DNA of 64,000 nucleotides from Escherichia phage phi92: the sequence record NC_023693.1. One strand, given 5' to 3'. Below the pieces are notes generated by a model. That model ran no database searches, was not told the DNA's origin, and saw only the letters and a program-made list of their open reading frames with translations. The translations under genes and the position numbers were made by a program. Shown piece by piece: positions 8,617 through 18,877 of this stretch. Numbering within the stretch: position 1 is the first letter of the stretch; the number at the start of each line of letters is the position of its first letter.

Positions 8617-9339
8617 TTAAGCAATGATTGCTGCGATATTAGGTTTAACAAAGGTAGATGGTTTCATAATTTTACCTTTGTCATCAAAGAATACGTACAC
8701 CTTTTGAACTTCGTTATATACAGCATGTACCCCAGTATAAGAACCTTCTGCACGATCTTTGCTTCGCATCTCGATAGCATCGCACTCTTTTTCAAGAGCT
8801 TCAATAATATCCTTAGTTTCCCAAATAGCCAGGAGTTGCTTCTTGGTAGGATACTTGGACTCATTACTATTCAACACTTCACGCATAACCTTCTTCTCGT
8901 TATAAACAGAACGCACCAAAGTATCTCGTGCCATACGTGTAAGTGTAAGAGACATTAGGGCAAATTGCAAGTCATTTTCTACCATTTTATCAAATTCAAT
9001 GATAACATCGTAGATGTTTTCTGCCAGAACATCTCCTGTCGGCATTTCCAGAGCTTTATCAACACCTTCTTTACCAAAGAACATAAATGCCAGGTAGGAT
9101 GCTACCACAAAAATATCTGCTGCTGCATCAAGTAATTCAACGTGATCATTTTCCTGTGCTGCTGCTTGGAACTCTTTTAGTTCTTCGCGTACAAAAGAAA
9201 GTTGAGCTTCAAACATCTCTTGAGTAAATTCTGGAGTTACTCCACCGCGTGCCTTAGCATTCCAAGCAACAATTTGATCGGCAGCTTTGATAAAGAAGCT
9301 ATTGTCCACTTTTACTTGTTTGAAAAAATTCTCGATCAT
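8617..9339 (-). CDS. MazG-like nucleoside triphosphate pyrophosphohydrolase
   Basis: EELKEFQAA ... ELLDAAADIFVV resembles the MazG/HisE EExxE ... ExxD metal-binding helix pair. Confidence 0.5.
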   Translation of the reverse strand: MIENFFKQVKVDNSFFIKAADQIVAWNAKARGGVTPEFTQEMFEAQLSFVREELKEFQAAAQENDHVELLDAAADIFVVASYLAFMFFGKEGVDKALEMPTGDVLAENIYDVIIEFDKMVENDLQFALMSLTLTRMARDTLVRSVYNEKKVMREVLNSNESKYPTKKQLLAIWETKDIIEALEKECDAIEMRSKDRAEGSYTGVHAVYNEVQKVYVFFDDKGKIMKPSTFVKPNIAAIIA

Positions 9340-9348
9340 TGTTTCTCC

Positions 9349-9555
9349 TTATTTAAAATATTGTTCTAACAAAACACTAATGCGAACTACCGATTCGCCC
9401 ATATACGCCCCAGCACAGAGGAAAACAACAAATCTACAAAAATTGCAGTACCATTTGTCCACCGGAAACGAGGCTAACATTATAATTGCAATAGCAATTA
9501 ACATCATAAGAACTGTTACTAATACCATATTATCTCTTACTCTGCTGGTTCCCAA
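9349..9555 (-). CDS. small membrane protein (68 aa)
   Basis: two hydrophobic helices. Confidence 0.35.
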   Translation of the reverse strand: MGTSRVRDNMVLVTVLMMLIAIAIIMLASFPVDKWYCNFCRFVVFLCAGAYMGESVVRISVLLEQYFK

Positions 9556-10653
9556 GTACCTGGAATCATCTTACGTAAACGGACACCTGTTGGTTTTGTA
9601 GGTATTCCACCATCGGAAAATTCTTCGTACTCTATTTCAACAAATTGACCAATAAGTGTCAAAGCATTTTCTTCTTTACGATAGTTAATGGTTTCATCTG
9701 AATCCTTACGCATCAGGAATTCGACTACTTTACCATTTTCCATCTCACCTGTCAATACCCCGTCACCATTTTTATCACGTTTTGCACTTACCACTTTAAC
9801 TTCAAGCGTCTGACGTGGTTTACGTTTAATAACATCATAAGAACGTTTATCAAACTCGTAAACACCTTGTGCGTTACGATACACCACACCTTCCGCTTTC
9901 TCACGTAGAGCTTTTGCATAGAAAGCATCAAACTGCTCTTGGTTTTCAATGTACTCTGTATGTACTACACAAATAAGTTCATCTAAACCTTTATCTTCAA
10001 CAACGTCTTTTAGAGCAGCCAAAACTTCAACCCTCTTCTCAAATGGTACAGATGGCACAGGAACATCATATACATAGTATTTAAGAAGCGGAGTGTTAGC
10101 ATTATGCTTTTTCCACGCACTATTAATTTGTTGAAGGCTAAGGACACCCAAACCAGCAAAAACTTCACCGTCAAGAGGATGACCAACTACTTCTTTAATG
10201 AAGGTTGGAATTTCTTTCCAGTGAGGTGGAAGTTTATATACTTCCCCAGCTTTAGATAAACATTCACCTTGCATGTTAATCATTGAACGTAGACCATTCA
10301 ATTTATATTGTGCATAACCTGGGAACAAAACACGATCAGCATAATCTTTATAATCCTGACATTTCATGGGTGTGGAAGGAACATGGTTTTCAGCTTCCTC
10401 TTTTGTTTTATAATACCCATTCTTAAGTTGTTTTGTCCATTTGGCAAGAGCTTCTATTTCAGCTTGTTCTTCTGCTGTTGTTTCATTTGAGCGACCAATA
10501 TTTTTAGGTTCTGCTGTGTAAGATTTGCTAGTAATCTTTCCACCTAATTGACCATGAGCAACAGTTACAACACTACCTTCGGTATAGACTGACCACTGTT
10601 TAATTTTACCTGTAGAAGTTTTACCATACAATGTAGGATTAGTTTGTTTCATC
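9537..10653 (-). CDS. ATP-dependent DNA ligase
   Basis: Nucleotidyltransferase motif I KLNGLR, motif IV EGVVYR, OB-domain tail; start set at internal ATG (MKQTNP) preceded by GGAGG. Confidence 0.8.
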
Positions 10654-10842
10654 TTTAACCTCCAGTTGCGAAAGAACCCATTTAGCCATTTCAATTTCAC
10701 CGTGTAGTCTGCCTAGTTCATAGGCATCATCAATATTACCACCAGTGTAATCATCCACCATAAAGTAAGGATCTTCACTACTGTTAGGCGCGTTTGCAAT
10801 TCTCGTTAGTTCTTCAATAAATGTCATAGTTAACCTTACCAA
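10639..10842 (-). CDS. hypothetical protein (67 aa)
   Basis: ORF overlapping ligase start. Confidence 0.35.
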   Translation of the reverse strand: MVRLTMTFIEELTRIANAPNSSEDPYFMVDDYTGGNIDDAYELGRLHGEIEMAKWVLSQLEVKDETN

Positions 10843-11060
10843 TTATACACAAGAGTTTGAATTTCTTCCATCAAATCTTCAAGATCTGTATCAACATATT
10901 CAGAAGATGTTGCCATAAAGTATGTAATCATTGTGAACCCTTCCGAAGAAAGGGCATCAAGGATATCATTAAACATATCTTCCATTTCAGTATTCTCACC
11001 AAATGAAAATAACATTTGTTGATCTTCGCTTACACCTTTAACATAGATAGCTGTGCTCAT
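10836..11060 (-). CDS. hypothetical acidic protein (74 aa)
   Basis: ORF only. Confidence 0.35.
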   Translation of the reverse strand: MSTAIYVKGVSEDQQMLFSFGENTEMEDMFNDILDALSSEGFTMITYFMATSSEYVDTDLEDLMEEIQTLVYNW

Positions 11061-11063
11061 ATA

Positions 11064-11384
11064 TTAATCCTTAAGACGTTCATTTAAATCTGCAATAACA
11101 TCACCTAAATCTTCACATTCCAGTGTTAACTCTGAAACTTGTCCACTCAAATAACAAACTTCTTCATTTAGATCTGAAATAATGTTTTCTAATGAATCTA
11201 CTTGGTCATCATATGAACGTTTTGTTTCTTCAAGTTCTTCCGTAAGATCATTAATCAAACGGAGCAAAGATAAGATATAACCGTCTCCTGTCTCGTTCCT
11301 CCACTCACTTCCGTAGCGATAAATAATAATTTCACCATTATCGACTACTGTAAAATACTTACCTTCACCAGAATAAATTTCCAT
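11064..11384 (-). CDS. hypothetical protein (106 aa)
   Basis: ORF only; coiled-coil-like acidic C-terminal half. Confidence 0.4.
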   Translation of the reverse strand: MEIYSGEGKYFTVVDNGEIIIYRYGSEWRNETGDGYILSLLRLINDLTEELEETKRSYDDQVDSLENIISDLNEEVCYLSGQVSELTLECEDLGDVIADLNERLKD

Positions 11385-11393
11385 AAACTCTCC

Positions 11394-11798
11394 TTATTGT
11401 AGCTTAAGTGAACTGCGAAGACGTTCCTCTTGCTGATCACGAATATGTTGTGGAACCTCATGAATTGAATCGTTACCGTGCCTATTCTCCACAACTAAAG
11501 AAATAACTTGATAACCAAACTCTTCAGCAAGAGTTAAATAGGGTTTAAGTTCTTTTTCTGTAGTAGAGGTATTAGAAACAATAATCTTTTCAACACCATA
11601 CTGCATATATTTTTGTACTTTGACACGACACCATTGGTGTGCTTTATGGATATTCTCTTGTTTCCACTCATACACACCATCTTCAGTGTAGTGGTATTGA
11701 TCTGCCTCACAAATAGGCCAATGATTTTCAGAGATAATTTCTGCTACTGTAGATTTACCTGCACCTGAAACACCACGTAAAATGATAAGTTGTTTCAT
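11394..11798 (-). CDS. polynucleotide 5'-kinase (kinase domain only)
   Basis: P-loop GVSGAGKST and IIVSNTSTT resembling the T4 Pnk kinase domain; no HAD phosphatase domain attached. Confidence 0.65.
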   Translation of the reverse strand: MKQLIILRGVSGAGKSTVAEIISENHWPICEADQYHYTEDGVYEWKQENIHKAHQWCRVKVQKYMQYGVEKIIVSNTSTTEKELKPYLTLAEEFGYQVISLVVENRHGNDSIHEVPQHIRDQQEERLRSSLKLQ

Positions 11799-12731
11799 TT
11801 AGCCTCCAAAGAAGTTTTCTATTTCTTTACGTCGCTCTTGTGGATCTAAAGCAGCCCATTGAGTCTTAGTAAAGTTGTTTCGAAGCCATTCTAGCAAAGT
11901 ATAATATTCTTCGTCAACAATTTGTTTAGCATTGTTTGGGTTGTCCCAAATCATATCCCACTTCTTATTGCCACCACGCATAAGGAATTTTTTAGCAAGA
12001 TAGTATGGTGACTTAATCTTTAACAGTAAGTTAAACGGGTAGTTTGTTTCACGAACAACAAACCCTTCGTGTTTACAATGTTTAGACATTTCAACAACAT
12101 CTGAAAATTTAATCATCGGATAAACTTCAGGACGTTTAAATTTTGTAACAGATGCAATCCCATCAAGAACACCTTCAGGTAACATGAAACTTGTCCCATC
12201 AAGATTTTGAATTCTTGCTCCAATTAAGTATGCGCCTGGTTCTTCTTCGACAATATGTGGGTCAGAAGGATCACAGATTTCAAAAAGAAAAGTTGCTTTT
12301 GCACTTTCTGTCCACTTAATGAAATACTCTATGTCGTCACACTCGGAAACAATACGGTTCTTTGCCATAATTGCGAAATCTGATTCTAGGCTCCCTGTTG
12401 TTGATACAACAAGTTTCCCTTTGTACACACCTACAGATGCCACAAAACCGTTTACTTTACGGACAGCATCTACAATTTCGTCTGCTGGAAGATCTGTACC
12501 ATTTTCAAAACGATTAAAGATTTTAGTAAAAGGCCAAATAACAACATTGTCTTCTGAGTCAACAACCAACCCACGACAATCTAAAAGTCGTTTGTCAACG
12601 TTCCACAAGTTATCCCAGAATACATTGTTTTTGTATTTAAGTACAGCAAGACCAGCATACTCTCCAGATTTAACTTCTTTTTTATGCACTAAACCTTTTG
12701 CAATCAGGTCATCACAATTGAACTTAGCCAC
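11799..12731 (-). CDS. RNA ligase (Rnl-type nucleotidyltransferase)
   Basis: motif I KVNGF, motif IV EGFVVRE, motif V LLKIKSPYY; adjacent to kinase and phosphoesterase. Confidence 0.7.
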   Translation of the reverse strand: MAKFNCDDLIAKGLVHKKEVKSGEYAGLAVLKYKNNVFWDNLWNVDKRLLDCRGLVVDSEDNVVIWPFTKIFNRFENGTDLPADEIVDAVRKVNGFVASVGVYKGKLVVSTTGSLESDFAIMAKNRIVSECDDIEYFIKWTESAKATFLFEICDPSDPHIVEEEPGAYLIGARIQNLDGTSFMLPEGVLDGIASVTKFKRPEVYPMIKFSDVVEMSKHCKHEGFVVRETNYPFNLLLKIKSPYYLAKKFLMRGGNKKWDMIWDNPNNAKQIVDEEYYTLLEWLRNNFTKTQWAALDPQERRKEIENFFGG

Positions 12732-12732
12732 C

Positions 12733-13284
12733 TTAATCTCCTTTGATTATCTTATGATGATCTACAACAATAATATCACGCTTATCCATAATAGAGATGA
12801 TTTCGTCAAAATGCAAGATTTTCCCGTGTGCATCCCAACCAACATCCAACATTTTCCCATACAAATGATCAGGGAATGATCCGTGAGAGTGTCCGTGTAG
12901 CATGATTGATCCATGCCCTTGTTTATTCCAGGCAGCCATAGGGTAATGACTTAAGACGAAGAACAGCTTCTGATATTTCACTTCGTCATAATACAAAACT
13001 TCTCCATACTCTGCAAGCACTTTTCTGTGTTTGCTGTAATCATGGTTCCCAACACAGTAAGTAATATCCCCTTGGAGACGGGAAGCAATCTTACGGGTAT
13101 CTTCTTCAGTCCCGAAACAGAAGTCCCCAAGATGGTACATCTTTACTCCTGGTGTTGTGGCACATTTATTCCATGCTTCGATCAGTGCTTCTGTCATATG
13201 CTCCATATCTTCCCACGGACGATATTCAGGAGCAAACTCTCGGATACGTTTGTGCATAAAATGCAAATCACTTGTAATAAACAT
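12733..13284 (-). CDS. calcineurin-like metallophosphoesterase
   Basis: SDLHFMH, GDFCFG, GNHD, HGHSHG metal-binding motifs. Confidence 0.75.
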   Translation of the reverse strand: MFITSDLHFMHKRIREFAPEYRPWEDMEHMTEALIEAWNKCATTPGVKMYHLGDFCFGTEEDTRKIASRLQGDITYCVGNHDYSKHRKVLAEYGEVLYYDEVKYQKLFFVLSHYPMAAWNKQGHGSIMLHGHSHGSFPDHLYGKMLDVGWDAHGKILHFDEIISIMDKRDIIVVDHHKIIKGD

Positions 13285-13646
13285 TAGTATAATCCCTCGC
13301 TGAATAGTTCACTGTTGTGACCATTTCTTTCGTAGTTAATTTGTTTGGCGTTATCTGCAATGATATAAGCATCTTTGCGACTCCACCAGTTATAATACTG
13401 ATCAATAAACCCTTGATTATCAGGTAAGCAAAACAGTTTATCGATCAATCCTGCATCTTTTAAAACATTAAGTTGTGCAGATAGTACAGGATTTGCATGC
13501 CTAACACAAGGAATAATTAACTCTTCGCCATTGTTAAGAATATACTTATTCGCAGCGCATACTATAACACGTTGAGCATAGTGATCCTCACCAATCCAAG
13601 TAAGAGGTTGGTAACAAATATCATGTTGATTAGTAGCGCACATCAA
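13284..13646 (-). CDS. hypothetical protein (120 aa)
   Basis: ORF only. Confidence 0.4.
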   Translation of the reverse strand: MMCATNQHDICYQPLTWIGEDHYAQRVIVCAANKYILNNGEELIIPCVRHANPVLSAQLNVLKDAGLIDKLFCLPDNQGFIDQYYNWWSRKDAYIIADNAKQINYERNGHNSELFSEGLY

Positions 13647-13801
13647 TTTTCTCCGTACTCTTTTAATCTATCAGCGAAAAAACTGTAATCAGGAAGTAAA
13701 AGATCATTACTCATATCGTTACAGTTTTCTTCCTCTTTATAGATAAAACGCCCTTCATCCTCTTCTTGCTCTGACCAAACTGAGTAATGCATAATACCTA
13801 C

Positions 13802-14143
13802 TTAATAATTAACACGTTTAATTTCAACACCATAGGATGAAATAAAATTTTCCTTAGCTAACATATATTTACCAGCAGCAGAAGGATTTGATGTATGAAC
13901 ATAGATAGTTTTAAGAGCATCCCATTCACCCGCGTACAACATACATTCTACGTCTAAGAACGCATGATATCCTTCTTGATCTTCTCCAAGATCATTATCG
14001 AAGTGTATCTCTGAGATATTATTGAAATTATCTTCATCTGAAACAAAAGATAACCAATCCTCAAAAGATTTTAACCAAATGGCATCCTCATAACCATAAT
14101 CTTTAGGATCTCTTAAATCGTCTAACCAAAGAATTTTAGCCAC
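13802..14143 (-). CDS. hypothetical protein (113 aa)
   Basis: ORF only. Confidence 0.35.
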   Translation of the reverse strand: MAKILWLDDLRDPKDYGYEDAIWLKSFEDWLSFVSDEDNFNNISEIHFDNDLGEDQEGYHAFLDVECMLYAGEWDALKTIYVHTSNPSAAGKYMLAKENFISSYGVEIKRVNY

Positions 14144-14337
14144 TATCTACCCCCTTCCTGTTTCTCTTCTTTCCAAGTTTTACCATTATCTACCAACTTC
14201 TTAGAAACAGCAAATCTTTCTCCATTGATATAAAACAAATAAAGAATAAAGGATTTTCCTATAGTTACAGTATCTGCTACTTCTACACGCTTTACACCTT
14301 GCATGTATTTGGCTTTACCTGAATAAATAAGAAACAT
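14143..14337 (-). CDS. hypothetical protein (64 aa)
   Basis: ORF only. Confidence 0.3.
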   Translation of the reverse strand: MFLIYSGKAKYMQGVKRVEVADTVTIGKSFILYLFYINGERFAVSKKLVDNGKTWKEEKQEGGR

Positions 14338-14615
14338 TACTTATTCCTTTTGTTGTTGATCACATCTAAAGCTGTGTAAGGTTTGTTTGTACCGCTGTAT
14401 TCAAGAATAATTGGTACATATTCATAGACCAACTCAAAAGTACCATACACAGAATCTGCAACTGAAATAAGCATTTCAGTGCCTTCGTCGTTCTTAATTA
14501 ATGAAAATCTTGCCCCTGGTTTATTGAGCACTTCATATTTCTTACCTGCTGTCAGCAAACCTGAATACCATTCATTTTGCACAACAGACAAACACTTCAG
14601 ATAAGTTTTTCTCAT
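14337..14615 (-). CDS. hypothetical protein (92 aa)
   Basis: ORF only. Confidence 0.35.
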   Translation of the reverse strand: MRKTYLKCLSVVQNEWYSGLLTAGKKYEVLNKPGARFSLIKNDEGTEMLISVADSVYGTFELVYEYVPIILEYSGTNKPYTALDVINNKRNK

Positions 14616-15769: not shown

Positions 15770-16110
15770 TATTTCCTCCTGTACGGCTCTGTAACGAGCT
15801 AATAGCCTCTAAGATATGCAATCACCTTACCTCACAGTAAAACTCGTTACAATCGTTTTTAGGAGGTTTAGGTTGTACTTAAAAATAATCTAAAAAGGTG
15901 TTGACAAACGCAAAAAAGTATGCTACCCTAACCCCCGAAAAACGCCGAGCGCAGCGAGGGGGTGTTATCTAATCTTGTGATACATGATCTAACAGACAAC
16001 TGAGTAGTCTACATATAGCACTATGTTATGTCTATAATACTAACATACATACTCTATACTAACAATAGATTCTTTATTAATTTTATTATTAATTAAATAA
16101 TAAATATCTA

Positions 16111-16139
16111 TTGACTTTAGATCTATCTGTATGTAGAGT
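16111..16139 (+). promoter_or_regulatory. sigma70-like promoter upstream of prs-like gene
   Basis: TTGACT - 17 nt - TAGAGT. Confidence 0.5.
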
Positions 16140-16178
16140 AGAGAACATAAAGTCCTAACTCAACTAAGGAGATAAACA

Positions 16179-17072
16179 ATGAAAGTTAGTATTCTACATG
16201 GTGTTGGCTGTTATGTTACTGATGTAGACGTTAAAGTCTTTACATTCTCTGGTGGAGAACAACATGTTCAACTAGACACGAATCTATCAGGTTTCAATCA
16301 TGCTACAGACAGAATCTTACTCTCTTTAGAAGTAAGATCTGCTAAAGACTTGATGACTTTGGTTATGACTAAGAATGCATTGGACAATATGCTATATCAT
16401 AAACCATATTGTGTTGATTTGCTCATGTTGTATGTGCCATATGCACGACAAGACAGAGTGTGTGAACCTGGGGAAGCATTCGGAGTTAAAGCATTTGCTT
16501 CTATAATTAATTCATTAAATTTCTCACGTGTTATCGTTGCTGATCCACATAGTGATGTTACTCCAGCGGTGTTTGACAGACTCTGTGTAATACCTCAAGA
16601 AGAAATTGCTTACGAAACTTTAAAGTGGAAGTTACGTATGGAGAATTTTGCTCTTGTTAGTCCTGATGGTGGTGCTCTTAAGAAAATATTTAAATTATCT
16701 AAGAAAATGTCTTTAGATGTGTTCTGTGCAGAGAAGGTTAGAGATACTGCAACAGGTGCTATTGTTCGTACAGACATTTCTGTACAGGATTTCAATAAGC
16801 GTAACCTGATGATCGTAGATGATATCTGTGACGGCGGTAGAACTTTTATTGAATTGGCTAAAGTGCTACGTGCTCGTAACGCAGGTAAGATTGAGTTATA
16901 TGTTACACACGGTATCTTTTCTAAAGGTCTTAAAGAGTTAAGTGAGCACTTTGACTGCATTCATTCTCTTAATGTGTGGGAAGATAACATCCAAGAAGAT
17001 TCCGGTGTTCTTGTTAAGAATCAGTCAGATTTGCAACAACAAATTGTATCTCCATACGTGTGGAATTTTTAA
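16179..17072 (+). CDS. prs: ribose-phosphate pyrophosphokinase family protein (PRPP synthetase-like; possible ADP-ribose pyrophosphokinase)
   Basis: PRPP-binding loop MIVDDICDGGRT, VSPDGGALKK, VIVADPHS; strong RBS AAGGAG. Confidence 0.85.
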   Translation: MKVSILHGVGCYVTDVDVKVFTFSGGEQHVQLDTNLSGFNHATDRILLSLEVRSAKDLMTLVMTKNALDNMLYHKPYCVDLLMLYVPYARQDRVCEPGEAFGVKAFASIINSLNFSRVIVADPHSDVTPAVFDRLCVIPQEEIAYETLKWKLRMENFALVSPDGGALKKIFKLSKKMSLDVFCAEKVRDTATGAIVRTDISVQDFNKRNLMIVDDICDGGRTFIELAKVLRARNAGKIELYVTHGIFSKGLKELSEHFDCIHSLNVWEDNIQEDSGVLVKNQSDLQQQIVSPYVWNF

Positions 17073-17082
17073 ATAATAAGTG

Positions 17083-17111
17083 TTGACAATAGGGAGTATG
17101 CTTAGTAAGAT
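17083..17111 (+). promoter_or_regulatory. sigma70-like promoter overlapping an 8-bp-arm palindrome, upstream of NAMPT-like gene
   Basis: TTGACA - 17 nt - TAAGAT; palindrome GGGAGTAT ... ATACTCCC spans about 17091-17116. Confidence 0.5.
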
Positions 17112-17143
17112 ACTCCCACACTAACAAACAAGGAGACATAACT

Positions 17144-18877
17144 ATGAATATTTTTGCACCTTTTGCTACTGATTGGTATAAACCTGGTCACAAGCAGATG
17201 TACAACCAAAATACAAAACTCATTTTCTCTAATTTAACTCCTCGTAATGATAAAAACTTTGCACACTATGCAGATCGTGAAGCACGTGGTGTGATTGTTT
17301 TAGGTATTCGTCGAGCAGTCACTGATGCTCTTGTAACTATGTGGGATAGCTTCTTTAAAATGTCTCGTAGTGCAGCAGTAAATAAATTTTATCGTATGTC
17401 TAAAAATGCATTAGGTGCTTCTGCTCCTTCTGCTGAATGTTGGGAAGAATTGCACGATTTAGGTTATCTTCCGCTAGAAGTTCGATCTCTGCCAGAAGGT
17501 GTTTTGTGTCCTATTGGTGTTCCTGTGTTTACTGTGCATAATACTTTAGAAAAATTCTTTTGGTTAACTAACTATGTGGAAACACTATTGTCAGATGAAA
17601 CTTGGAAGACAATGACTAATGCCACAGCAGCTTTTCAGTATAAGCGTATCGCTATGGCGTATGCGATGGCAACGTGTGATAACATTGATCACGTTAATTT
17701 CCAGTGTCATGACTTTAGCCTACGTGGTTTAAGCAATATCGAAGATGGTTATAAGAGTGGTATCGCTCATTTGGCATCTTTCACAGGAACAGATAACATT
17801 CTGGCTATTGAGACTGTGCATGATTATTATGGTATTGATTATGATCAGTTTGTTGCAGGTTCTATTCCGGCAACAGAACATTCAGTAGCAACGACTAACA
17901 TTGGAGCTATTGTTGAAGATCTGAAGAAACATTTCCCACATCTTAAAGATGATGTTGATGGGCTTCGTTATGTAGCAGAGAAAGAGTTTCTTCGCCGCTA
18001 TATTGAAGAAATTGTTCCAGAAGGTTTTTGTTCATATGTAGCAGATTCTTATGATTACTGGGCTGTCTTGACTCGCATTCTGGTAGAATTGAAAGAGTCC
18101 ATTATGTCACGAAATGGTCGTCTTGTTATTCGTCCAGATTCAGGAGATCCGGTTAAAGTTGTTGCAGGATACAATGTTGAATCTTTTGCTAACTATGAAG
18201 ACCTTTTAAATAATGGTATTGCTACAGCCACTGAAGTAGTTCATTTGGCTGATGTTAATAAGTATTACAATGTTCTTCAGGATTGCAGTGTTGCTGATTG
18301 TATTGATGAAACTTATGAGATTCCTTATTGTGAAGCAGTAGGTTCTATTCAAATCCTTTGGGAAGTGTTTGGTGGTACTATCAACCGAAAAGGCTACAAG
18401 GTTCTTGATCAGCACATCGGTATGATTTATGGTGATTCTATTACTGTTGAACGAGAATACGAGATCTTACGCCGACTGAAGAAGAAAGGTTTTGCAGCTT
18501 CCAATATTGTATTTGGTGTTGGTAGTTATACTTATCAGTTCAATACACGAGATACTTTTGGTTTTGCTGTTAAAGCAACAGGTAGTATCATCGGTGAACA
18601 CGAAATTTTGGTAAGTAAGGAGCCTAAAACTGATCCTGGTAAACGCTCTGCAAAAGGTTTTATTAAGGTTGTTAAGGATACAAATGGTAAACTTTCTCTT
18701 GTGGATAATCTTTCTTTTAAAGATATCCAAGATGAAGACAATGAGTTAAAAGTTATCTTCAGGGATGGTACGGTTATTACACCACAAGTAGAAGGACGTG
18801 ATGAAACATTTACTGATATCCGCAACCGTGTTGATGTAGAGGTTCTTCGTACTATGGGAACCATCCAGGTTGACTAA
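17144..18877 (+). CDS. nadV: nicotinamide phosphoribosyltransferase family protein (NAMPT/NadV-like)
   Basis: N-terminal FATDWYKPGHKQMY matches the NAMPT TDSYK region; 577 aa with C-terminal extension. Confidence 0.85.
   Translation: MNIFAPFATDWYKPGHKQMYNQNTKLIFSNLTPRNDKNFAHYADREARGVIVLGIRRAVTDALVTMWDSFFKMSRSAAVNKFYRMSKNALGASAPSAECWEELHDLGYLPLEVRSLPEGVLCPIGVPVFTVHNTLEKFFWLTNYVETLLSDETWKTMTNATAAFQYKRIAMAYAMATCDNIDHVNFQCHDFSLRGLSNIEDGYKSGIAHLASFTGTDNILAIETVHDYYGIDYDQFVAGSIPATEHSVATTNIGAIVEDLKKHFPHLKDDVDGLRYVAEKEFLRRYIEEIVPEGFCSYVADSYDYWAVLTRILVELKESIMSRNGRLVIRPDSGDPVKVVAGYNVESFANYEDLLNNGIATATEVVHLADVNKYYNVLQDCSVADCIDETYEIPYCEAVGSIQILWEVFGGTINRKGYKVLDQHIGMIYGDSITVEREYEILRRLKKKGFAASNIVFGVGSYTYQFNTRDTFGFAVKATGSIIGEHEILVSKEPKTDPGKRSAKGFIKVVKDTNGKLSLVDNLSFKDIQDEDNELKVIFRDGTVITPQVEGRDETFTDIRNRVDVEVLRTMGTIQVD

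What the first reader, a model, noticed from the sequence alone, without database searches (positions are those of the whole stretch)
11394..13284. RNA-repair cassette split into three genes: kinase, RNA ligase and metallophosphoesterase
Three adjacent co-directional genes encode a P-loop polynucleotide kinase domain (GVSGAGKST), an Rnl-type RNA ligase (KVNGF, EGFVVRE, LLKIKSPYY) and a calcineurin-like phosphoesterase (GDxxD, GNHD, GHSHG). Together these supply the end-healing and sealing activities needed to repair tRNAs cut by host anticodon nucleases. Unlike T4, where kinase is fused to a HAD phosphatase, the phosphatase here is a separate binuclear-metal enzyme, a combination known from bacterial Pnkp-type proteins. 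The ligase is shorter than T4 Rnl1 and its specificity is unknown.
Basis: partly seen in the sequence, partly recalled or inferred. Interest (0 to 1): 0.7.

Follow-up and report, generated by a model that had tools for sequence, protein, structure and literature searches.

The report
Phage three-gene RNA heal-and-seal cassette
A phi92-like E. coli phage carries three tightly packed genes (a metal-dependent phosphoesterase, a T4-type RNA ligase and a small polynucleotide-kinase-like enzyme) that most likely mend RNAs, probably tRNAs, cut by host defences; the set is real and widespread in phages, is already annotated and predicted in the literature, and has not been tested biochemically.

Summary
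Three abutting minus-strand ORFs lie at 12733-13284 (metallophosphoesterase, MPE), 11799-12731 (Rnl1-type RNA ligase) and 11394-11798 (PNK-clade P-loop kinase). The window is a Justusliebigvirus, about 98% identical to phages Eryne and EmilieFrey/Bas61.

The RNA-repair reading is well supported by comparison.
- Of 85 phage loci carrying this ligase (46 lineages), 78 have the kinase and 70 the MPE nearby.
- Some phages fuse kinase to ligase.
- Leptolyngbyaceae cyanobacteria carry a 712-aa kinase-MPE-ligase protein, with this ligase clade, next to RtcB.
- All catalytic residues are conserved.

- The MPE belongs to the uncharacterised Aquifex aq_1665 clade, not the lambda-phosphatase/Pnkp clade.
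- The kinase lacks the T4 Arg38 equivalent.
- The ligase has its own ~70-aa C-terminal module.
- The operon also holds a cREC gene.
- The cassette often sits beside NARP1-like NAD+ genes and tRNA arrays.

GenBank records already annotate the genes, and Iyer et al. 2022 described the related V5-type neighbourhood. I found no biochemical study. Verdict: a variant of the T4 Pnkp/Rnl1 and bacterial Pnkp theme, of moderate interest.

The parts
12733..13284 (-). Binuclear metallophosphoesterase (183 aa), the proposed 2',3'-cyclic-phosphate / 3'-phosphate end-healing enzyme. It belongs to the aq_1665-like clade.
   Evidence: PHROG 547 E=2e-54. Profile against PDB 1xm7 E=4e-22. AF2 model pLDDT 94.6; Foldseek top hit 1xm7 with TM 0.71, lambda phosphatase only rank 30 with TM 0.44. 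D6, H8, D54, N80, H113, H132 and H134 are invariant in 31 homologues. Found near the ligase in 70 of 85 loci and 39 of 46 lineages.
11799..12731 (-). ATP-dependent RNA ligase (310 aa): an Rnl1-type adenylyltransferase domain plus a distinct ~70-aa helical C-terminal module. The predicted nucleophile is K92.
   Evidence: Pfam PF09511 E=3.8e-14. hhalign against T4 Rnl1 Prob 96.7%, E=3.4e-10 over aa 47-247. AF2 pLDDT 91.4. Foldseek top hits are T4 Rnl1 and fungal Trl1-LIG, E~1e-13. Invariant residues include R53, K70, F72, K92, N94, G95, E151, H159, E222, G223, K238, K240, K248 and R252.
11394..11798 (-). Small P-loop kinase of the polynucleotide-kinase clade (134 aa), the proposed RNA 5'-OH kinase.
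   Evidence: AAA_33 E=1.8e-10; PHROG 2071 E=5e-58; PHROG 505 'polynucleotide kinase' E=1e-9. Family profile against PDB: T4 Pnk 1e-7, Pnkp1 1.6e-7, PSTK 5e-7, CthPnk 9e-7. Invariant D33 aligns with the T4 Pnk catalytic Asp35. Adjacent to the ligase in 78 of 85 loci. Fused to it in 421-432-aa proteins.
13802..14143 (-). cREC (cyclic-phosphate-processing receiver-like) protein. A lineage-specific accessory in the same operon and a possible metal-independent cyclic phosphodiesterase.
   Evidence: Pfam PF20274 E=2.3e-14, above the gathering score. Found near the ligase in 13 of 85 loci, close relatives only. The function is a published prediction only (PMC7824862, PMC9503650).
13284..13646 (-). 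120-aa protein of unknown function (PHROG 839) immediately upstream of the MPE, with an overlapping stop/start. Whether it belongs to the pathway is unknown.
   Evidence: PHROG 839 E=4e-47 with no Pfam or NCBIfam hit. TAATG overlap with the MPE start. Found in only 5 of 85 ligase loci.
13643..13792 (-). 49-aa ORF between the cREC gene and the PHROG 839 gene, annotated as a hypothetical protein in related phages.
   Evidence: A 4-nt overlap with the downstream ORF. No family hit.
8617..9339 (-). MazG-like nucleotide pyrophosphohydrolase, 2 kb downstream in the same leftward gene block. Iyer et al. list it as part of the related V5-type neighbourhood.
   Evidence: Pfam PRA-PH E=3e-7 and PHROG 671 E=6e-28. 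Homologues within 10 kb of the ligase in 16 of 85 loci. PMC9503650 section 3.7.3.

Best explanation
The three genes encode a stand-alone, split RNA repair pathway of the heal-and-seal type. They work like T4 Pnkp + Rnl1 and like bacterial Pnkp.

The proposed trigger is a host metal-independent ribonuclease, with anticodon nucleases such as PrrC as the model. Such an enzyme cuts a tRNA (or another RNA) during infection and leaves a 2',3'-cyclic phosphate and a 5'-OH.

Proposed steps:
1. The binuclear-metal phosphoesterase opens and removes the cyclic or 3' phosphate to restore a 3'-OH.
2. The small P-loop kinase transfers a phosphate from an NTP to the 5'-OH.
3. The Rnl1-type ligase is adenylylated on Lys92, activates the 5'-phosphate as AppRNA and seals the break.

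In this phage lineage the upstream cREC protein may help open the cyclic phosphate.

What is shown here: the genes, their folds, conservation of catalytic residues, operon structure, conserved neighbourhood and domain fusions. What is inferred: all enzymatic activities, the order of steps, tRNA as the substrate, and the counter-defence role.
For: - Fold and motifs. The ligase has all essential Rnl1 nucleotidyltransferase residues (R53, K70, F72, K92, G95, E151, E222, G223, K238, K240), aligned to T4 R54, K75, F77, K99, G102, E159, E227, G228, K240 and K242. The model matches T4 Rnl1 and Trl1-LIG. The kinase profile matches polynucleotide kinases first, and its catalytic Asp is conserved. The MPE has all seven metal ligands.
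- Gene linkage. Among 85 phage loci with 39-98% identical ligases, the kinase is present in 78 and the MPE in 70. They are nearly always on the same strand and within about 1-2 kb, but in shuffled orders (MPE-LIG-KIN, KIN-LIG-MPE, and others). An unbiased neighbour clustering puts the MPE in 39 of 46 ligase lineages, the top neighbour.
- Fusions. KIN-LIG proteins of 421-432 aa exist, with Pfam AAA_33 + RNA_lig_T4_1 in one chain. In Leptolyngbya sp. PCC 7375 and relatives, a 712-aa protein joins a CthPnk-like kinase (E=3.5e-11), a CthPnkp-type phosphatase (4j6o, E=2.5e-24) and a ligase domain collinear with the phage ligase to its C-terminus. RtcB lies 1.6 kb away.
- Operon. The junctions are translationally coupled.
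- Context. The cassette lies 7 kb from a 15-tRNA array. tRNA or tmRNA genes lie within the fetched flanks in 32 of 53 ligase loci.
- Reciprocal test. In 80 MPE-family loci, the only recurrent neighbours are the ligase (32 loci, median distance 934 bp) and the kinase (27 loci).
- Precedent. T4 Pnkp/Rnl1 repair of PrrC-cut tRNA-Lys, and the Mn-dependent 2',3'-phosphoesterase of Pnkp, are established (abstracts of PMC2190708, PMC3675462 and PMC3025547).
Against: - No enzyme of this phage group has been assayed, in any paper I could find.
- The MPE's nearest solved relative is a protein of unknown function, and the clade is distinct from the Pnkp/lambda-phosphatase clade.
- About half of phage MPE homologues occur without a nearby ligase.
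- The kinase lacks the equivalent of T4 Arg38, which binds the acceptor (role of Arg38 from memory). It has His or Phe there. Part of the family also lacks the NRHG lid arginine. A nucleotide rather than polynucleotide substrate is therefore not excluded.
- The ligase lacks a recognisable T4-type tRNA-specificity domain and has Thr where T4 has the essential Lys119 (role of Lys119 from memory).
- Nothing in the sequence identifies which RNA is repaired.
Confidence: 0.7

Rival explanations
1. Same three enzymes, but a Trl1-like (fungal or plant tRNA-splicing-type) chemistry. The phosphoesterase and/or cREC opens the cyclic phosphate to a 2'-phosphate/3'-OH end, and the ligase prefers or needs that 2'-phosphate. 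The junction 2'-phosphate is then removed with NAD+ by host KptA, or by a sirtuin in related phages. The neighbouring NARP1-like genes recycle the ADP-ribose and nicotinamide by-products.
For: - In fungal ligase the His-Arg-Arg triad (His227, Arg334, Arg337) enforces the 2'-PO4 requirement (PMC11404444 and PMC6379707).
- hhalign puts the phage family's invariant N94 and H159 on Trl1 Asn150 and His227.
- Invariant K247/K248 and R252 follow motif V, and R252 has the same +12 spacing as Arg337. T4 Rnl1 has Asp, Ile, His and Ser at these places and does not join 2'-P ends (PMC12440814).
- The C-module size (~70 aa, helical) is nearer to Trl1's 79 aa than to T4's 120 aa.
- Vequintavirus and other relatives have a SIR2 gene and cREC beside the ligase, as Iyer et al. 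proposed.
- Prs-like/Nampt-like genes lie within 10 kb in 37 and 44 of 85 loci, and a Poa1p-like Macro gene occurs in 9 lineages.
Against: - Overall the ligase is much closer to T4 Rnl1 (Prob 96.7%) than to Trl1 (Prob 52%).
- The alignment stops at motif V, so the Arg correspondence is not established.
- The cyanobacterial fusion pairs this ligase clade with a Pnkp-type phosphatase, which is known to remove the phosphate completely (abstract of PMC3675462).
- No sirtuin or KptA homologue is present in this window.
- Plant Trl1 needs 2'-PO4 without the two arginines, so the triad is not a universal marker.
- The Macro phosphatase has an independent, tested role against aRES defence.
Confidence: 0.12
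2. The phosphoesterase, and possibly the kinase, does not act on RNA ends. It acts instead on nucleotide or ADP-ribose-derived small molecules such as immune signals or NAD+ breakdown products. It would then feed or protect the adjacent NARP1-like NAD+ reconstitution genes, with the ligase working separately.
For: - The cassette is next to Prs-like + Nampt-like genes here (16179-18877) and in Pseudomonas and Vibrio phages.
- NARP1 operons are known to recruit accessory enzymes that convert ADPR derivatives (abstract of PMC13232231).
- The MPE clade is biochemically uncharacterised.
- Iyer et al. call the kinase a 'nucleotide kinase'.
- 42 of 80 MPE-family loci have no ligase nearby.
Against: - The MPE tracks the ligase (70 of 85 loci) much better than it tracks NARP1. 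Many loci have MPE + LIG + KIN without Nampt, and only 2-3 of 80 MPE loci have NARP1 genes without the ligase.
- The kinase is physically fused to the ligase in several phages.
- A kinase-MPE-ligase single chain exists in cyanobacteria.
- The experimentally defined NARP1-associated phosphatase is a Macro domain, not an MPE.
Confidence: 0.08
3. The ligase serves another purpose and the neighbours are incidental. Candidate purposes are a structural, T4 gp63-like tail-fibre attachment role (as the PHROG name suggests), general RNA or DNA end joining in replication or recombination, or maturation of the phage's own tRNAs.
For: - PHROG 562 is named 'RNA ligase and tail fiber protein attachment catalyst'.
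- The cassette sits in a block of DNA-metabolism genes (DNA ligase, exonucleases, ThyX, thymidine kinase).
- An ATP-dependent DNA ligase is a neighbour in 16 of 46 lineages.
Against: - All adenylyltransferase catalytic residues are invariant across hundreds of homologues, which argues for an enzymatic role.
- The phage has a separate dedicated DNA ligase.
- The conserved partners are end-healing enzymes, not tail genes.
- The tail-fibre activity is known only for T4 gp63 (from memory).
Confidence: 0.07

Closest known systems
Bacteriophage T4 tRNA repair: Pnkp (pseT) + RNA ligase 1 (gene 63)
   Same: The same three chemical activities are required: 5'-OH kinase, 2',3'/3' phosphate removal and ATP-dependent sealing. 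The ligase adenylyltransferase domain is homologous (hhalign Prob 96.7%). The kinase belongs to the same P-loop PNK clade, and its catalytic Asp aligns. Both are phage-encoded, and the presumed role is countering host tRNA cleavage.
   Different: In T4 the kinase is fused to a HAD (DxDxT) phosphatase, and the two genes are unlinked in the T4 genome (gene positions from memory). Here the kinase stands alone at 134 aa, the phosphatase is a binuclear MPE, and all three genes form one translationally coupled operon. The ligase lacks the 120-aa T4 C-domain that gives tRNA specificity and has a different ~70-aa module. T4 Lys119 is Thr here, and T4 Pnk Arg38 has no equivalent.
Bacterial Pnkp (Clostridium thermocellum Pnkp-Hen1) and the split Pnkp1-Rnl-Hen1 system
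   Same: It combines a P-loop polynucleotide kinase, a binuclear metallophosphoesterase and an adenylyltransferase ligase. A split version is known in bacteria (PMC4411300). A cyanobacterial Pnkp-like 712-aa protein carries the very ligase clade found in this phage.
   Different: The phage MPE is aq_1665-like, not lambda-phosphatase-like. The profile finds no Pnkp phosphatase at E<=1, and 4j6o is absent from the top 50 structural matches. The ligase is Rnl1-type, not the Rnl4 type of CthPnkp. No Hen1 methyltransferase partner is present in the operon.
Fungal/plant tRNA ligase Trl1 (LIG-KIN-CPD; Rnl6 clade)
   Same: It is a heal-and-seal system with an Rnl1-like adenylyltransferase domain joined to a PNK-clade kinase. 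The structural match is as strong as to T4 Rnl1 (E~2e-13). Motif I reads KxNG. The His next to motif III aligns. The C-module is short and helical.
   Different: Sequence-profile similarity is much weaker than to T4 Rnl1 (Prob 52%). The healing enzyme is an MPE (plus cREC), not a 2H cyclic phosphodiesterase. The RxxR pair is not demonstrably present. The 2'-PO4 requirement is untested.
Sirtuin-centred predicted RNA-repair neighbourhood of phage V5 / Proteus phage Mydo (Iyer, Burroughs, Anantharaman, Aravind 2022, PMC9503650)
   Same: [quoted passage not shown] I confirmed homologues of all of these in Vequintavirus naswa.
   Different: This Justusliebigvirus window has no sirtuin. In my sample the MPE is a core partner, not an occasional one: 39 of 46 lineages. 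Sirtuin and cREC are the lineage-restricted parts, at 12 and 13 of 85 loci.

Membership tests
Rnl1-family ATP-dependent RNA ligase (T4 Rnl1) | Covalent nucleotidyltransferase motifs I, III, IV and V with a lysine nucleophile | tested here: met
   K92-x-N94-G95, E151, E222-G223 and K238-x-K240 are invariant in 23 and 15 homologues. They align to T4 K99, E159, E227/G228 and K240/K242.
Rnl1-family ATP-dependent RNA ligase (T4 Rnl1) | Rnl1-type N-terminal sub-module with Arg54, Lys75 and Phe77 equivalents that contact ATP | tested here: met
   R53, K70 and F72 are invariant and aligned. The role of the T4 residues is from PMC6379707.
Rnl1-family ATP-dependent RNA ligase (T4 Rnl1) | The T4-type C-terminal domain (aa 255-374), which defines the family in the Shuman classification and confers tRNA specificity | tested here: not met
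   hhalign and hmmsearch alignments end at motif V (aa 247/249). The phage C-module is only ~70 aa. A residue-level structural superposition could not be done.
Rnl1-family ATP-dependent RNA ligase (T4 Rnl1) | Seals 3'-OH/5'-PO4 breaks in the tRNA anticodon loop | not testable with these tools
   Needs a biochemical assay.
Trl1-LIG / Rnl6 clade | His-Arg-Arg triad that binds the 2'-PO4 (Cth His227, Arg334, Arg337) | tested here: inconclusive
   H159 aligns with His227 and N94 with Asn150. R252 sits at +12 from motif V, like Arg337, and K248 at +8 versus +9. The region lies outside the profile alignment.
Trl1-LIG / Rnl6 clade | Rnl6-specific five-helix C-domain | tested here: inconclusive
   The size and helical nature are similar, but there is no sequence alignment. 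Foldseek TM scores are the same as for T4 Rnl1.
Polynucleotide 5'-kinase clade of P-loop phosphotransferases (T4 Pnk, CthPnk) | Walker A P-loop GxxGxGK(S/T) | tested here: met
   G9-x-x-G12-x-G14-K15-S16 is invariant.
Polynucleotide 5'-kinase clade of P-loop phosphotransferases (T4 Pnk, CthPnk) | Catalytic general-base Asp (T4 Asp35, Cth Asp38) | tested here: met
   Invariant D33 aligns with T4 D35 in the profile alignment.
Polynucleotide 5'-kinase clade of P-loop phosphotransferases (T4 Pnk, CthPnk) | Acceptor-binding Arg three residues after the Asp (T4 Arg38, Cth Arg41) | tested here: not met
   The position is His36 here and Phe/His/Tyr in the family. The role of Arg38 is from memory of the Shuman-lab literature.
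Polynucleotide 5'-kinase clade of P-loop phosphotransferases (T4 Pnk, CthPnk) | Best profile matches are polynucleotide or tRNA kinases rather than nucleotide kinases | tested here: met
   T4 Pnk 1e-7, Pnkp1 1.6e-7, PSTK 5e-7, CthPnk 9e-7 and mammalian PNKP 7e-6 rank ahead of gluconate, adenylate and shikimate kinases. The margins are modest.
Binuclear metallophosphoesterase (calcineurin-like) superfamily | Motifs DxH, GD, GNH(D/E), H and GHxH, which supply seven metal ligands | tested here: met
   D6, H8, D54, N80, H113, H132 and H134 are invariant in 31 sequences. The fold is confirmed.
Lambda-phosphatase-like clade that includes the Pnkp 2',3'-phosphatase module | Sequence or structural closeness to CthPnkp phosphatase (4j6o) or lambda phosphatase (1g5b) | tested here: not met
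   The profile search finds only 1xm7 (E=4e-22) and no 4j6o or 1g5b at E<=1. In Foldseek, 1g5b is rank 30 (E=0.011, TM 0.44) and 4j6o is not in the top 50.
Bacterial Pnkp-Hen1 RNA repair system | Hen1 2'-O-methyltransferase partner encoded alongside | tested here: not met
   No ORF in the 8.6-15.8 kb leftward block hits a methyltransferase family. No unassigned ORF of suitable size exists.
cREC (PF20274) accessory | Pfam model hit above the gathering score, with Rec-like acidic residues | tested here: met
   54.3 bits against a cut-off of 27. The sequence shows DD (aa 8-9) and FDND (aa 48-51).

The most novel reading that the evidence does not exclude
The ligase may represent a separate RNA-ligase clade: an Rnl1-type adenylyltransferase plus its own ~70-aa C-module. 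It occurs free in phages, fused to a kinase in other phages, and fused to a Pnkp-type kinase-phosphatase in cyanobacteria.

Its invariant Asn94, His159, Lys248 and Arg252 could form a Trl1-like pocket for a 2'-phosphate. If so, these phages would run a fungal-type tRNA-ligation pathway in bacteria. The 2'-phosphate junction would be cleared with NAD+ by host KptA or by phage sirtuins. The ADP-ribose and nicotinamide by-products would be recycled by the frequently adjacent NARP1 (and Macro) genes.

This would give bacterial KptA a natural substrate and would explain why the RNA-repair and NAD+-reconstitution genes travel together.
Probability: 0.12. Interest if true: 0.8.

Novelty: new variant of a known kind. 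Interest (0 to 1): 0.4.

Why it matters
Anticodon nucleases and other RNA-cutting effectors (PrrC, RloC, HEPN toxins, Cas13) are common abortive-infection weapons. The only phage repair pathway studied in detail is T4 Pnkp/Rnl1.

This cassette appears to be a much more widespread solution. The ligase is found in 755 of about 50,700 phage records, spanning Escherichia, Pseudomonas, Vibrio, Klebsiella, Acinetobacter and Streptomyces phages. It uses a different phosphatase fold clade, a minimal kinase and a ligase with a different specificity module.

It sits in therapeutic-candidate phage groups (phi92-like, rV5-like, Pakpunavirus), so it may affect host range on strains that carry RNA-targeting defences. 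Its frequent linkage to NARP1 and to tRNA/tmRNA arrays suggests a 'keep translation and NAD+ alive' island worth testing.

Practically, a compact 310-aa Rnl1-type ligase and a 134-aa kinase could be useful reagents. None of this is surprising in kind, and the prediction is already in databases and in one comparative paper.

Tried and rejected
1. Sirtuin or KptA/Tpt1 in the window. I looked for these to test the NAD+-dependent model. tblastn with the naswa SIR2 and with a recalled E. coli KptA sequence found nothing in the window. SIR2 is present only in 12 related loci.
2. Promoter and terminator scan of 8-17 kb. Counts equalled the shuffled expectation, so it gave no information on transcription units.
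4. Burroughs & Aravind 2016 (NAR) on RNA-repair systems. The paper is not held, so earlier descriptions of MPE-ligase-kinase linkage may exist that I could not read.
5. The MPE as the NARP1-associated ADPR-1''P phosphatase. Rejected: that enzyme is a Macro domain, and the MPE follows the ligase, not NARP1.
6. The MPE as a member of the Pnkp/lambda-phosphatase clade. Rejected.
7. The ligase as Rnl4 (CthPnkp C-domain), Rnl2, Rnl3 or Rnl5. These rank lower than Rnl1 and Trl1 or are absent in Foldseek.
8. Recurrent partners of the MPE in the 42 loci without a ligase. No neighbour was found in more than 3 loci.
9. Literature searches for biochemical or genetic work on this cassette in phi92-like, rV5-like or Pakpunavirus phages, and on aq_1665. 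Nothing was found.
10. Residue-level check of the putative 2'-phosphate pocket on the AF2 model. Not possible, because model coordinates are not exposed to the scripting tool.


Full report
**What is there**

The window is from a Justusliebigvirus, a phi92-like E. coli myophage of the subfamily Stephanstirmvirinae. Bases 11000-14400 are 98.4% identical to phage Eryne and 97.7% identical to EmilieFrey (BASEL Bas61), and 54 phage records cover at least 80% of the stretch.

Three ORFs occupy exactly the reported coordinates, all on the minus strand. In order of transcription they are 12733-13284 (183 aa), 11799-12731 (310 aa, GTG start) and 11394-11798 (134 aa).

They lie in a long leftward block of tightly packed genes running from about 15.8 kb to the window start. 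The junctions show translational coupling:
- The upstream gene's stop overlaps the first gene's ATG (TAATG).
- The ligase GTG starts 1 nt after the phosphoesterase stop, with AAGGAG upstream.
- The kinase ATG follows the ligase TAA directly, with GGAGG upstream.

**The ligase**

- Pfam RNA_lig_T4_1 matches at E=3.8e-14 and PHROG 562 at E=3e-68.
- A search of the large protein collection found 2,541 relatives, mostly ~300-aa proteins on ~90-150-kb phage contigs.
- In an alignment of 23 diverse members, the invariant residues include R53, K70, F72, K92, N94, G95, E151, H159, E222, G223, K238, K240, K248 and R252.
- The family profile hits T4 Rnl1 at E=5e-10 over residues 48-238. hhalign gives Prob 96.7% and E=3.4e-10 over residues 47-247.
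- In those alignments the T4 residues R54, K75, F77, K99 (nucleophile), G102, E159, E227, G228, K240 and K242 all have identical counterparts. T4 K119 is Thr112 here.
- An AlphaFold2 model (pLDDT 91.4) matches T4 Rnl1 (5tt6, 2c5u, 9do4) and fungal Trl1 ligase domains (9qw7, 6n0t, 8rbj, 6n67) equally well, at E about 1e-13 and TM about 0.62. Rnl3, Rnl2 and Rnl5 ligases and DNA ligases rank lower.
- Both profile alignments stop just after motif V. The last ~70 residues form six short helices and align neither to the 120-aa T4 C-domain nor to the Trl1 C-domain.

RNA-ligase families are defined by these appended modules (PMC6379707). The protein is therefore an Rnl1-type adenylyltransferase with its own C-module, not a strict Rnl1 member.

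**The kinase**

- The 134-aa protein hits AAA_33 (E=1.8e-10), PHROG 2071 'ATPase' (E=5e-58) and PHROG 505 'polynucleotide kinase' (E=1e-9).
- I built a 24-member alignment from ORFs next to the ligase in other phages. Its profile's best solved matches are T4 Pnk (1e-7), Capnocytophaga Pnkp1 (1.6e-7), seryl-tRNA(Sec) kinase (5e-7), C. thermocellum Pnk (9e-7, full length) and mammalian PNKP. Small-molecule kinases rank lower.
- The invariant D33 aligns with the T4 catalytic Asp35.
- The family has distinctive features. It has an invariant Arg8 before the P-loop and invariant His113-x-Val-Pro. It has no equivalent of T4 Arg38. The 'NRHG' lid segment is replaced in one sub-family.

It belongs to the PNK clade but is divergent. 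RNA as its substrate is inferred mainly from context.

**The phosphoesterase**

- The Pfam hit is sub-threshold. PHROG 547 gives E=2e-54.
- In an alignment of 31 homologues down to 35% identity, all seven canonical metal ligands are invariant: D6, H8, D54, N80, H113, H132 and H134.
- The family profile finds a single solved relative, Aquifex aeolicus aq_1665 (1xm7, a protein of unknown function), at E=4e-22. It finds nothing else at E<=1.
- The AlphaFold2 model (pLDDT 94.6) again matches 1xm7 best (TM 0.71). LpxH, MJ0936 and a Pseudomonas MPE nuclease follow. Lambda phosphatase is only rank 30 (TM 0.44), and the Pnkp phosphatase 4j6o is not in the top 50.
- I found no functional literature on this clade.

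The binuclear-metal chemistry is secure. The substrate is not. The parallel with bacterial Pnkp is one of analogy within a superfamily.

**Comparative evidence for a functional unit**

The ligase occurs in 755 phage records from many host genera. Annotated examples show the same trio in three groups:
- Vequintavirus naswa, where it occurs with cREC, SIR2 and a MazG-like gene.
- Pseudomonas Pakpunavirus phiMK.
- The T5-like Vibrio phage Ceto.

I fetched 80 further viral loci and searched them with the window's proteins. Of 85 ligase loci in total:
- 78 have the kinase and 70 the phosphoesterase within 10 kb. These are nearly always on the same strand and within 1-2 kb, but in different orders.
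- 44 have a Nampt-like gene and 37 a Prs-like gene.
- 13 have cREC and 12 have SIR2.

I then clustered all neighbouring ORFs without bias and counted lineages, defined as clusters of ligases at least 70% identical, of which there are 46. The results were:

| Neighbour | Lineages (of 46) |
|---|---|
| Ligase + kinase component | 44 |
| Phosphoesterase | 39 |
| Prs-like gene | 17 |
| Nampt-like gene | 17 |
| DNA ligase | 16 |
| Macro domain | 9 |
| Rv2179c-like 3'-5' exoribonuclease | 7 |

Several metagenomic phages encode a single 421-432-aa protein with the kinase at the N-terminus and the ligase at the C-terminus. Pfam finds AAA_33 + RNA_lig_T4_1 in one chain.

In cellular genomes, 34 loci carry the ligase.
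- Five loci also carry homologues of the phage MPE and/or kinase beside the ligase: one Flavobacteriaceae MAG contig and four Cardiobacteriaceae contigs. The full trio is detected in three of them.
- About 29 cyanobacterial genomes and MAGs, mostly Leptolyngbyaceae, carry the ligase without homologues of the phage kinase or MPE. In Leptolyngbya PCC 7375 it is the C-terminal domain of a 712-aa protein.
- The N-terminal domain of that protein matches C. thermocellum Pnk (E=3.5e-11). Its central domain matches the Pnkp phosphatase 4j6o (E=2.5e-24). RtcB lies 1.6 kb downstream.
- The cyanobacterial ligase domains align with the phage proteins right to the C-terminus and keep the same invariant residues.

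These fusions are the strongest argument that this ligase clade works with a 5' kinase and a metal-dependent 2',3' phosphatase on the same substrate.

The reciprocal test qualifies this. Of 80 phage loci found with the phosphoesterase family, 32 have the ligase (median distance 934 bp) and 27 the kinase. The other 42 have no recurrent neighbour at all. The ligase and kinase are thus the phosphoesterase's only repeated partners, but the phosphoesterase family is broader than the cassette.

**Context in this window**

- Upstream in the same operon lie a cREC protein (PF20274, E=2.3e-14), a 49-aa ORF and a PHROG 839 protein of unknown function.
- Downstream lie an ATP-dependent DNA ligase and a MazG-like pyrophosphohydrolase.
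- Across a divergent intergenic region at about 15.8-16.2 kb, where the GC skew changes sign, lie a Prs-like and a Nampt-like gene, followed by 15 tRNA genes.
- The Prs/Nampt pair looks like NARP1, the NAD+ reconstitution pathway shown experimentally in BASEL phage Bas63. I did not compare the sequences directly.
- tRNA or tmRNA genes lie within the fetched flanks of 32 of 53 ligase loci.

The cassette thus tends to sit in a region devoted to keeping translation and NAD+ supply going during infection. That fits a counter-defence role but does not prove it.

**Mechanism**

The best-supported model (confidence about 0.7) is a T4/Pnkp-like pathway.
1. [quoted passage not shown]
2. The phosphoesterase removes the phosphate, perhaps with cREC opening the ring in this lineage.
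3. The kinase phosphorylates the 5' end.
4. The ligase, adenylylated at K92, seals the break.

The genes, folds, residues and linkages are shown here. The activities, the substrate (tRNA) and the biological role are inferred.

**A more novel variant: a Trl1-like pathway**

This is the chief rival model.
- In fungal ligase, His227, Arg334 and Arg337 enforce the need for a 2'-phosphate.
- hhalign puts the phage family's invariant N94 and H159 on Trl1 Asn150 and His227. I took the Trl1 sequences from PDB alignments.
- Invariant K248 and R252 follow motif V, and R252 has the spacing of Arg337.
- T4 Rnl1 has none of these residues and does not join 2'-P ends.
- Related phages carry a sirtuin, which Iyer et al. 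proposed as a Tpt1-like 2'-phosphate remover. That reaction consumes NAD+ and releases nicotinamide and an ADP-ribose derivative, the feedstock of NARP1.

Against this:
- The much closer overall relation to T4 Rnl1.
- The lack of alignment over the arginines.
- The absence of a sirtuin or KptA in this window.
- The cyanobacterial fusion to a Pnkp-type phosphatase that removes the phosphate entirely.

I put this variant at about 0.12.

Two further rivals are less likely, because the phosphoesterase tracks the ligase rather than NARP1 and because of the fusions. One is that the phosphoesterase and kinase act on small ADPR or nucleotide molecules. The other is a non-repair role for the ligase.

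**Known or new**

The genes are annotated in GenBank as 'polynucleotide kinase', 'RNA ligase' and 'putative phosphoesterase' in EmilieFrey, and under PHROG names elsewhere. Iyer et al. [quoted passage not shown] I found no biochemical or genetic study.

What this analysis adds:
- The trio of ligase, kinase and aq_1665-type phosphoesterase is the conserved core across many phage lineages. The sirtuin and cREC are lineage-specific.
- Kinase-ligase fusions exist, as does a cyanobacterial Pnkp-like trifunctional fusion with this ligase clade.
- The ligase has its own C-module and some Trl1-like residues.
- The cassette is frequently linked to NARP1-like genes and tRNA/tmRNA arrays.

It is a variant of a known kind of system and of moderate interest.

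Noticed in passing
window 16179-17072 (+) and 17144-18877 (+): A Prs-like and a Nampt-like gene pair is divergently transcribed from the cassette block. It looks like the NARP1 NAD+ reconstitution operon (Adps + Namat) shown in BASEL phage Bas63. Nampt-like genes lie within 10 kb of the ligase in 44 of 85 loci and Prs-like genes in 37, across Escherichia, Pseudomonas and Vibrio phages. I made no direct sequence comparison with Bas63.
   Followed up: partly
window 19625-22544 (+): An array of 15 tRNA genes lies about 7 kb from the cassette. tRNA or tmRNA genes lie within the fetched flanks in 32 of 53 ligase loci, with up to 35 tRNAs in L073.
   Followed up: partly
window 20508-20583 (+): ARAGORN calls this 'tRNA-???, anticodon (tt)'. 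Read by eye it is a tRNA-Lys(UUU)-like gene with loop CUUUUAA and apparent mismatches at both ends of the anticodon stem (A-A and U-C). Eryne annotates the homologue as tRNA-Lys. tRNA-Lys is the PrrC target, so an altered anticodon stem might matter for nuclease evasion.
   Followed up: no
window 13802-14143 (-): The cREC (cyclic-phosphate-processing receiver) gene is annotated 'nudix hydrolase' in phage Eryne and 'hypothetical' elsewhere. The Nudix label looks like a mis-annotation carried over from Nudix-cREC fusions.
   Followed up: partly
L003 7046-7759 (Vequintavirus naswa_15) and window 8617-9339 (-): The naswa gene annotated 'putative Sir2-like protein' is the homologue of the window's MazG-like pyrophosphohydrolase (31% identity) and has no Pfam SIR2 hit. 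The true SIR2 is the gene before it.
   Followed up: partly
L106 6768-8906 (Leptolyngbya sp. PCC 7375) and about 29 other cyanobacterial loci (L088-L119): A chromosomal 712-aa protein joins a CthPnk-like kinase, a Pnkp-type metallophosphatase and the phage-type ligase domain. RtcB and a Pol-beta-type nucleotidyltransferase lie nearby, and no Hen1 was seen in the ORFs scanned. It appears to be a Pnkp variant with an Rnl1-type ligase domain in place of the Rnl4 type.
   Followed up: partly
L046, L049, L057, L061, L063, L064, L065, L070: These viral contigs encode single-chain kinase-ligase fusion proteins of 421-432 aa. In these contigs no phosphoesterase homologue was detected within 10 kb.
   Followed up: partly
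L057, L061, L068, L070, L085: tmRNA genes (permuted form, marked tmRNA* by ARAGORN) lie a few kb from the ligase in several viral contigs.
   Followed up: no
L005 2935-3675 (Vibrio phage Ceto gp167): A second phosphatase, lambda-type ('NinI-like serine-threonine phosphatase'), lies about 0.3 kb upstream of the ligase, in addition to the aq_1665-type phosphoesterase downstream.
   Followed up: no
e.g. L063 5950-6531: An Rv2179c-like 3'-5' exoribonuclease is a recurrent neighbour of the ligase, in 17 loci and 7 lineages. It may trim RNA ends.
   Followed up: no
window 9537-10700 (-): A separate ATP-dependent DNA ligase lies 1.1 kb downstream of the cassette and is a neighbour in 16 of 46 ligase lineages. 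The phage therefore carries two different ATP-dependent ligases side by side.
   Followed up: partly
window 30001-32000: G+C is 43.5% here against 35-40% in the rest of the window.
   Followed up: no
window about 15800-16180: The GC skew changes sign here, from negative to positive. This coincides with the switch from leftward to rightward genes, a divergent intergenic region.
   Followed up: no
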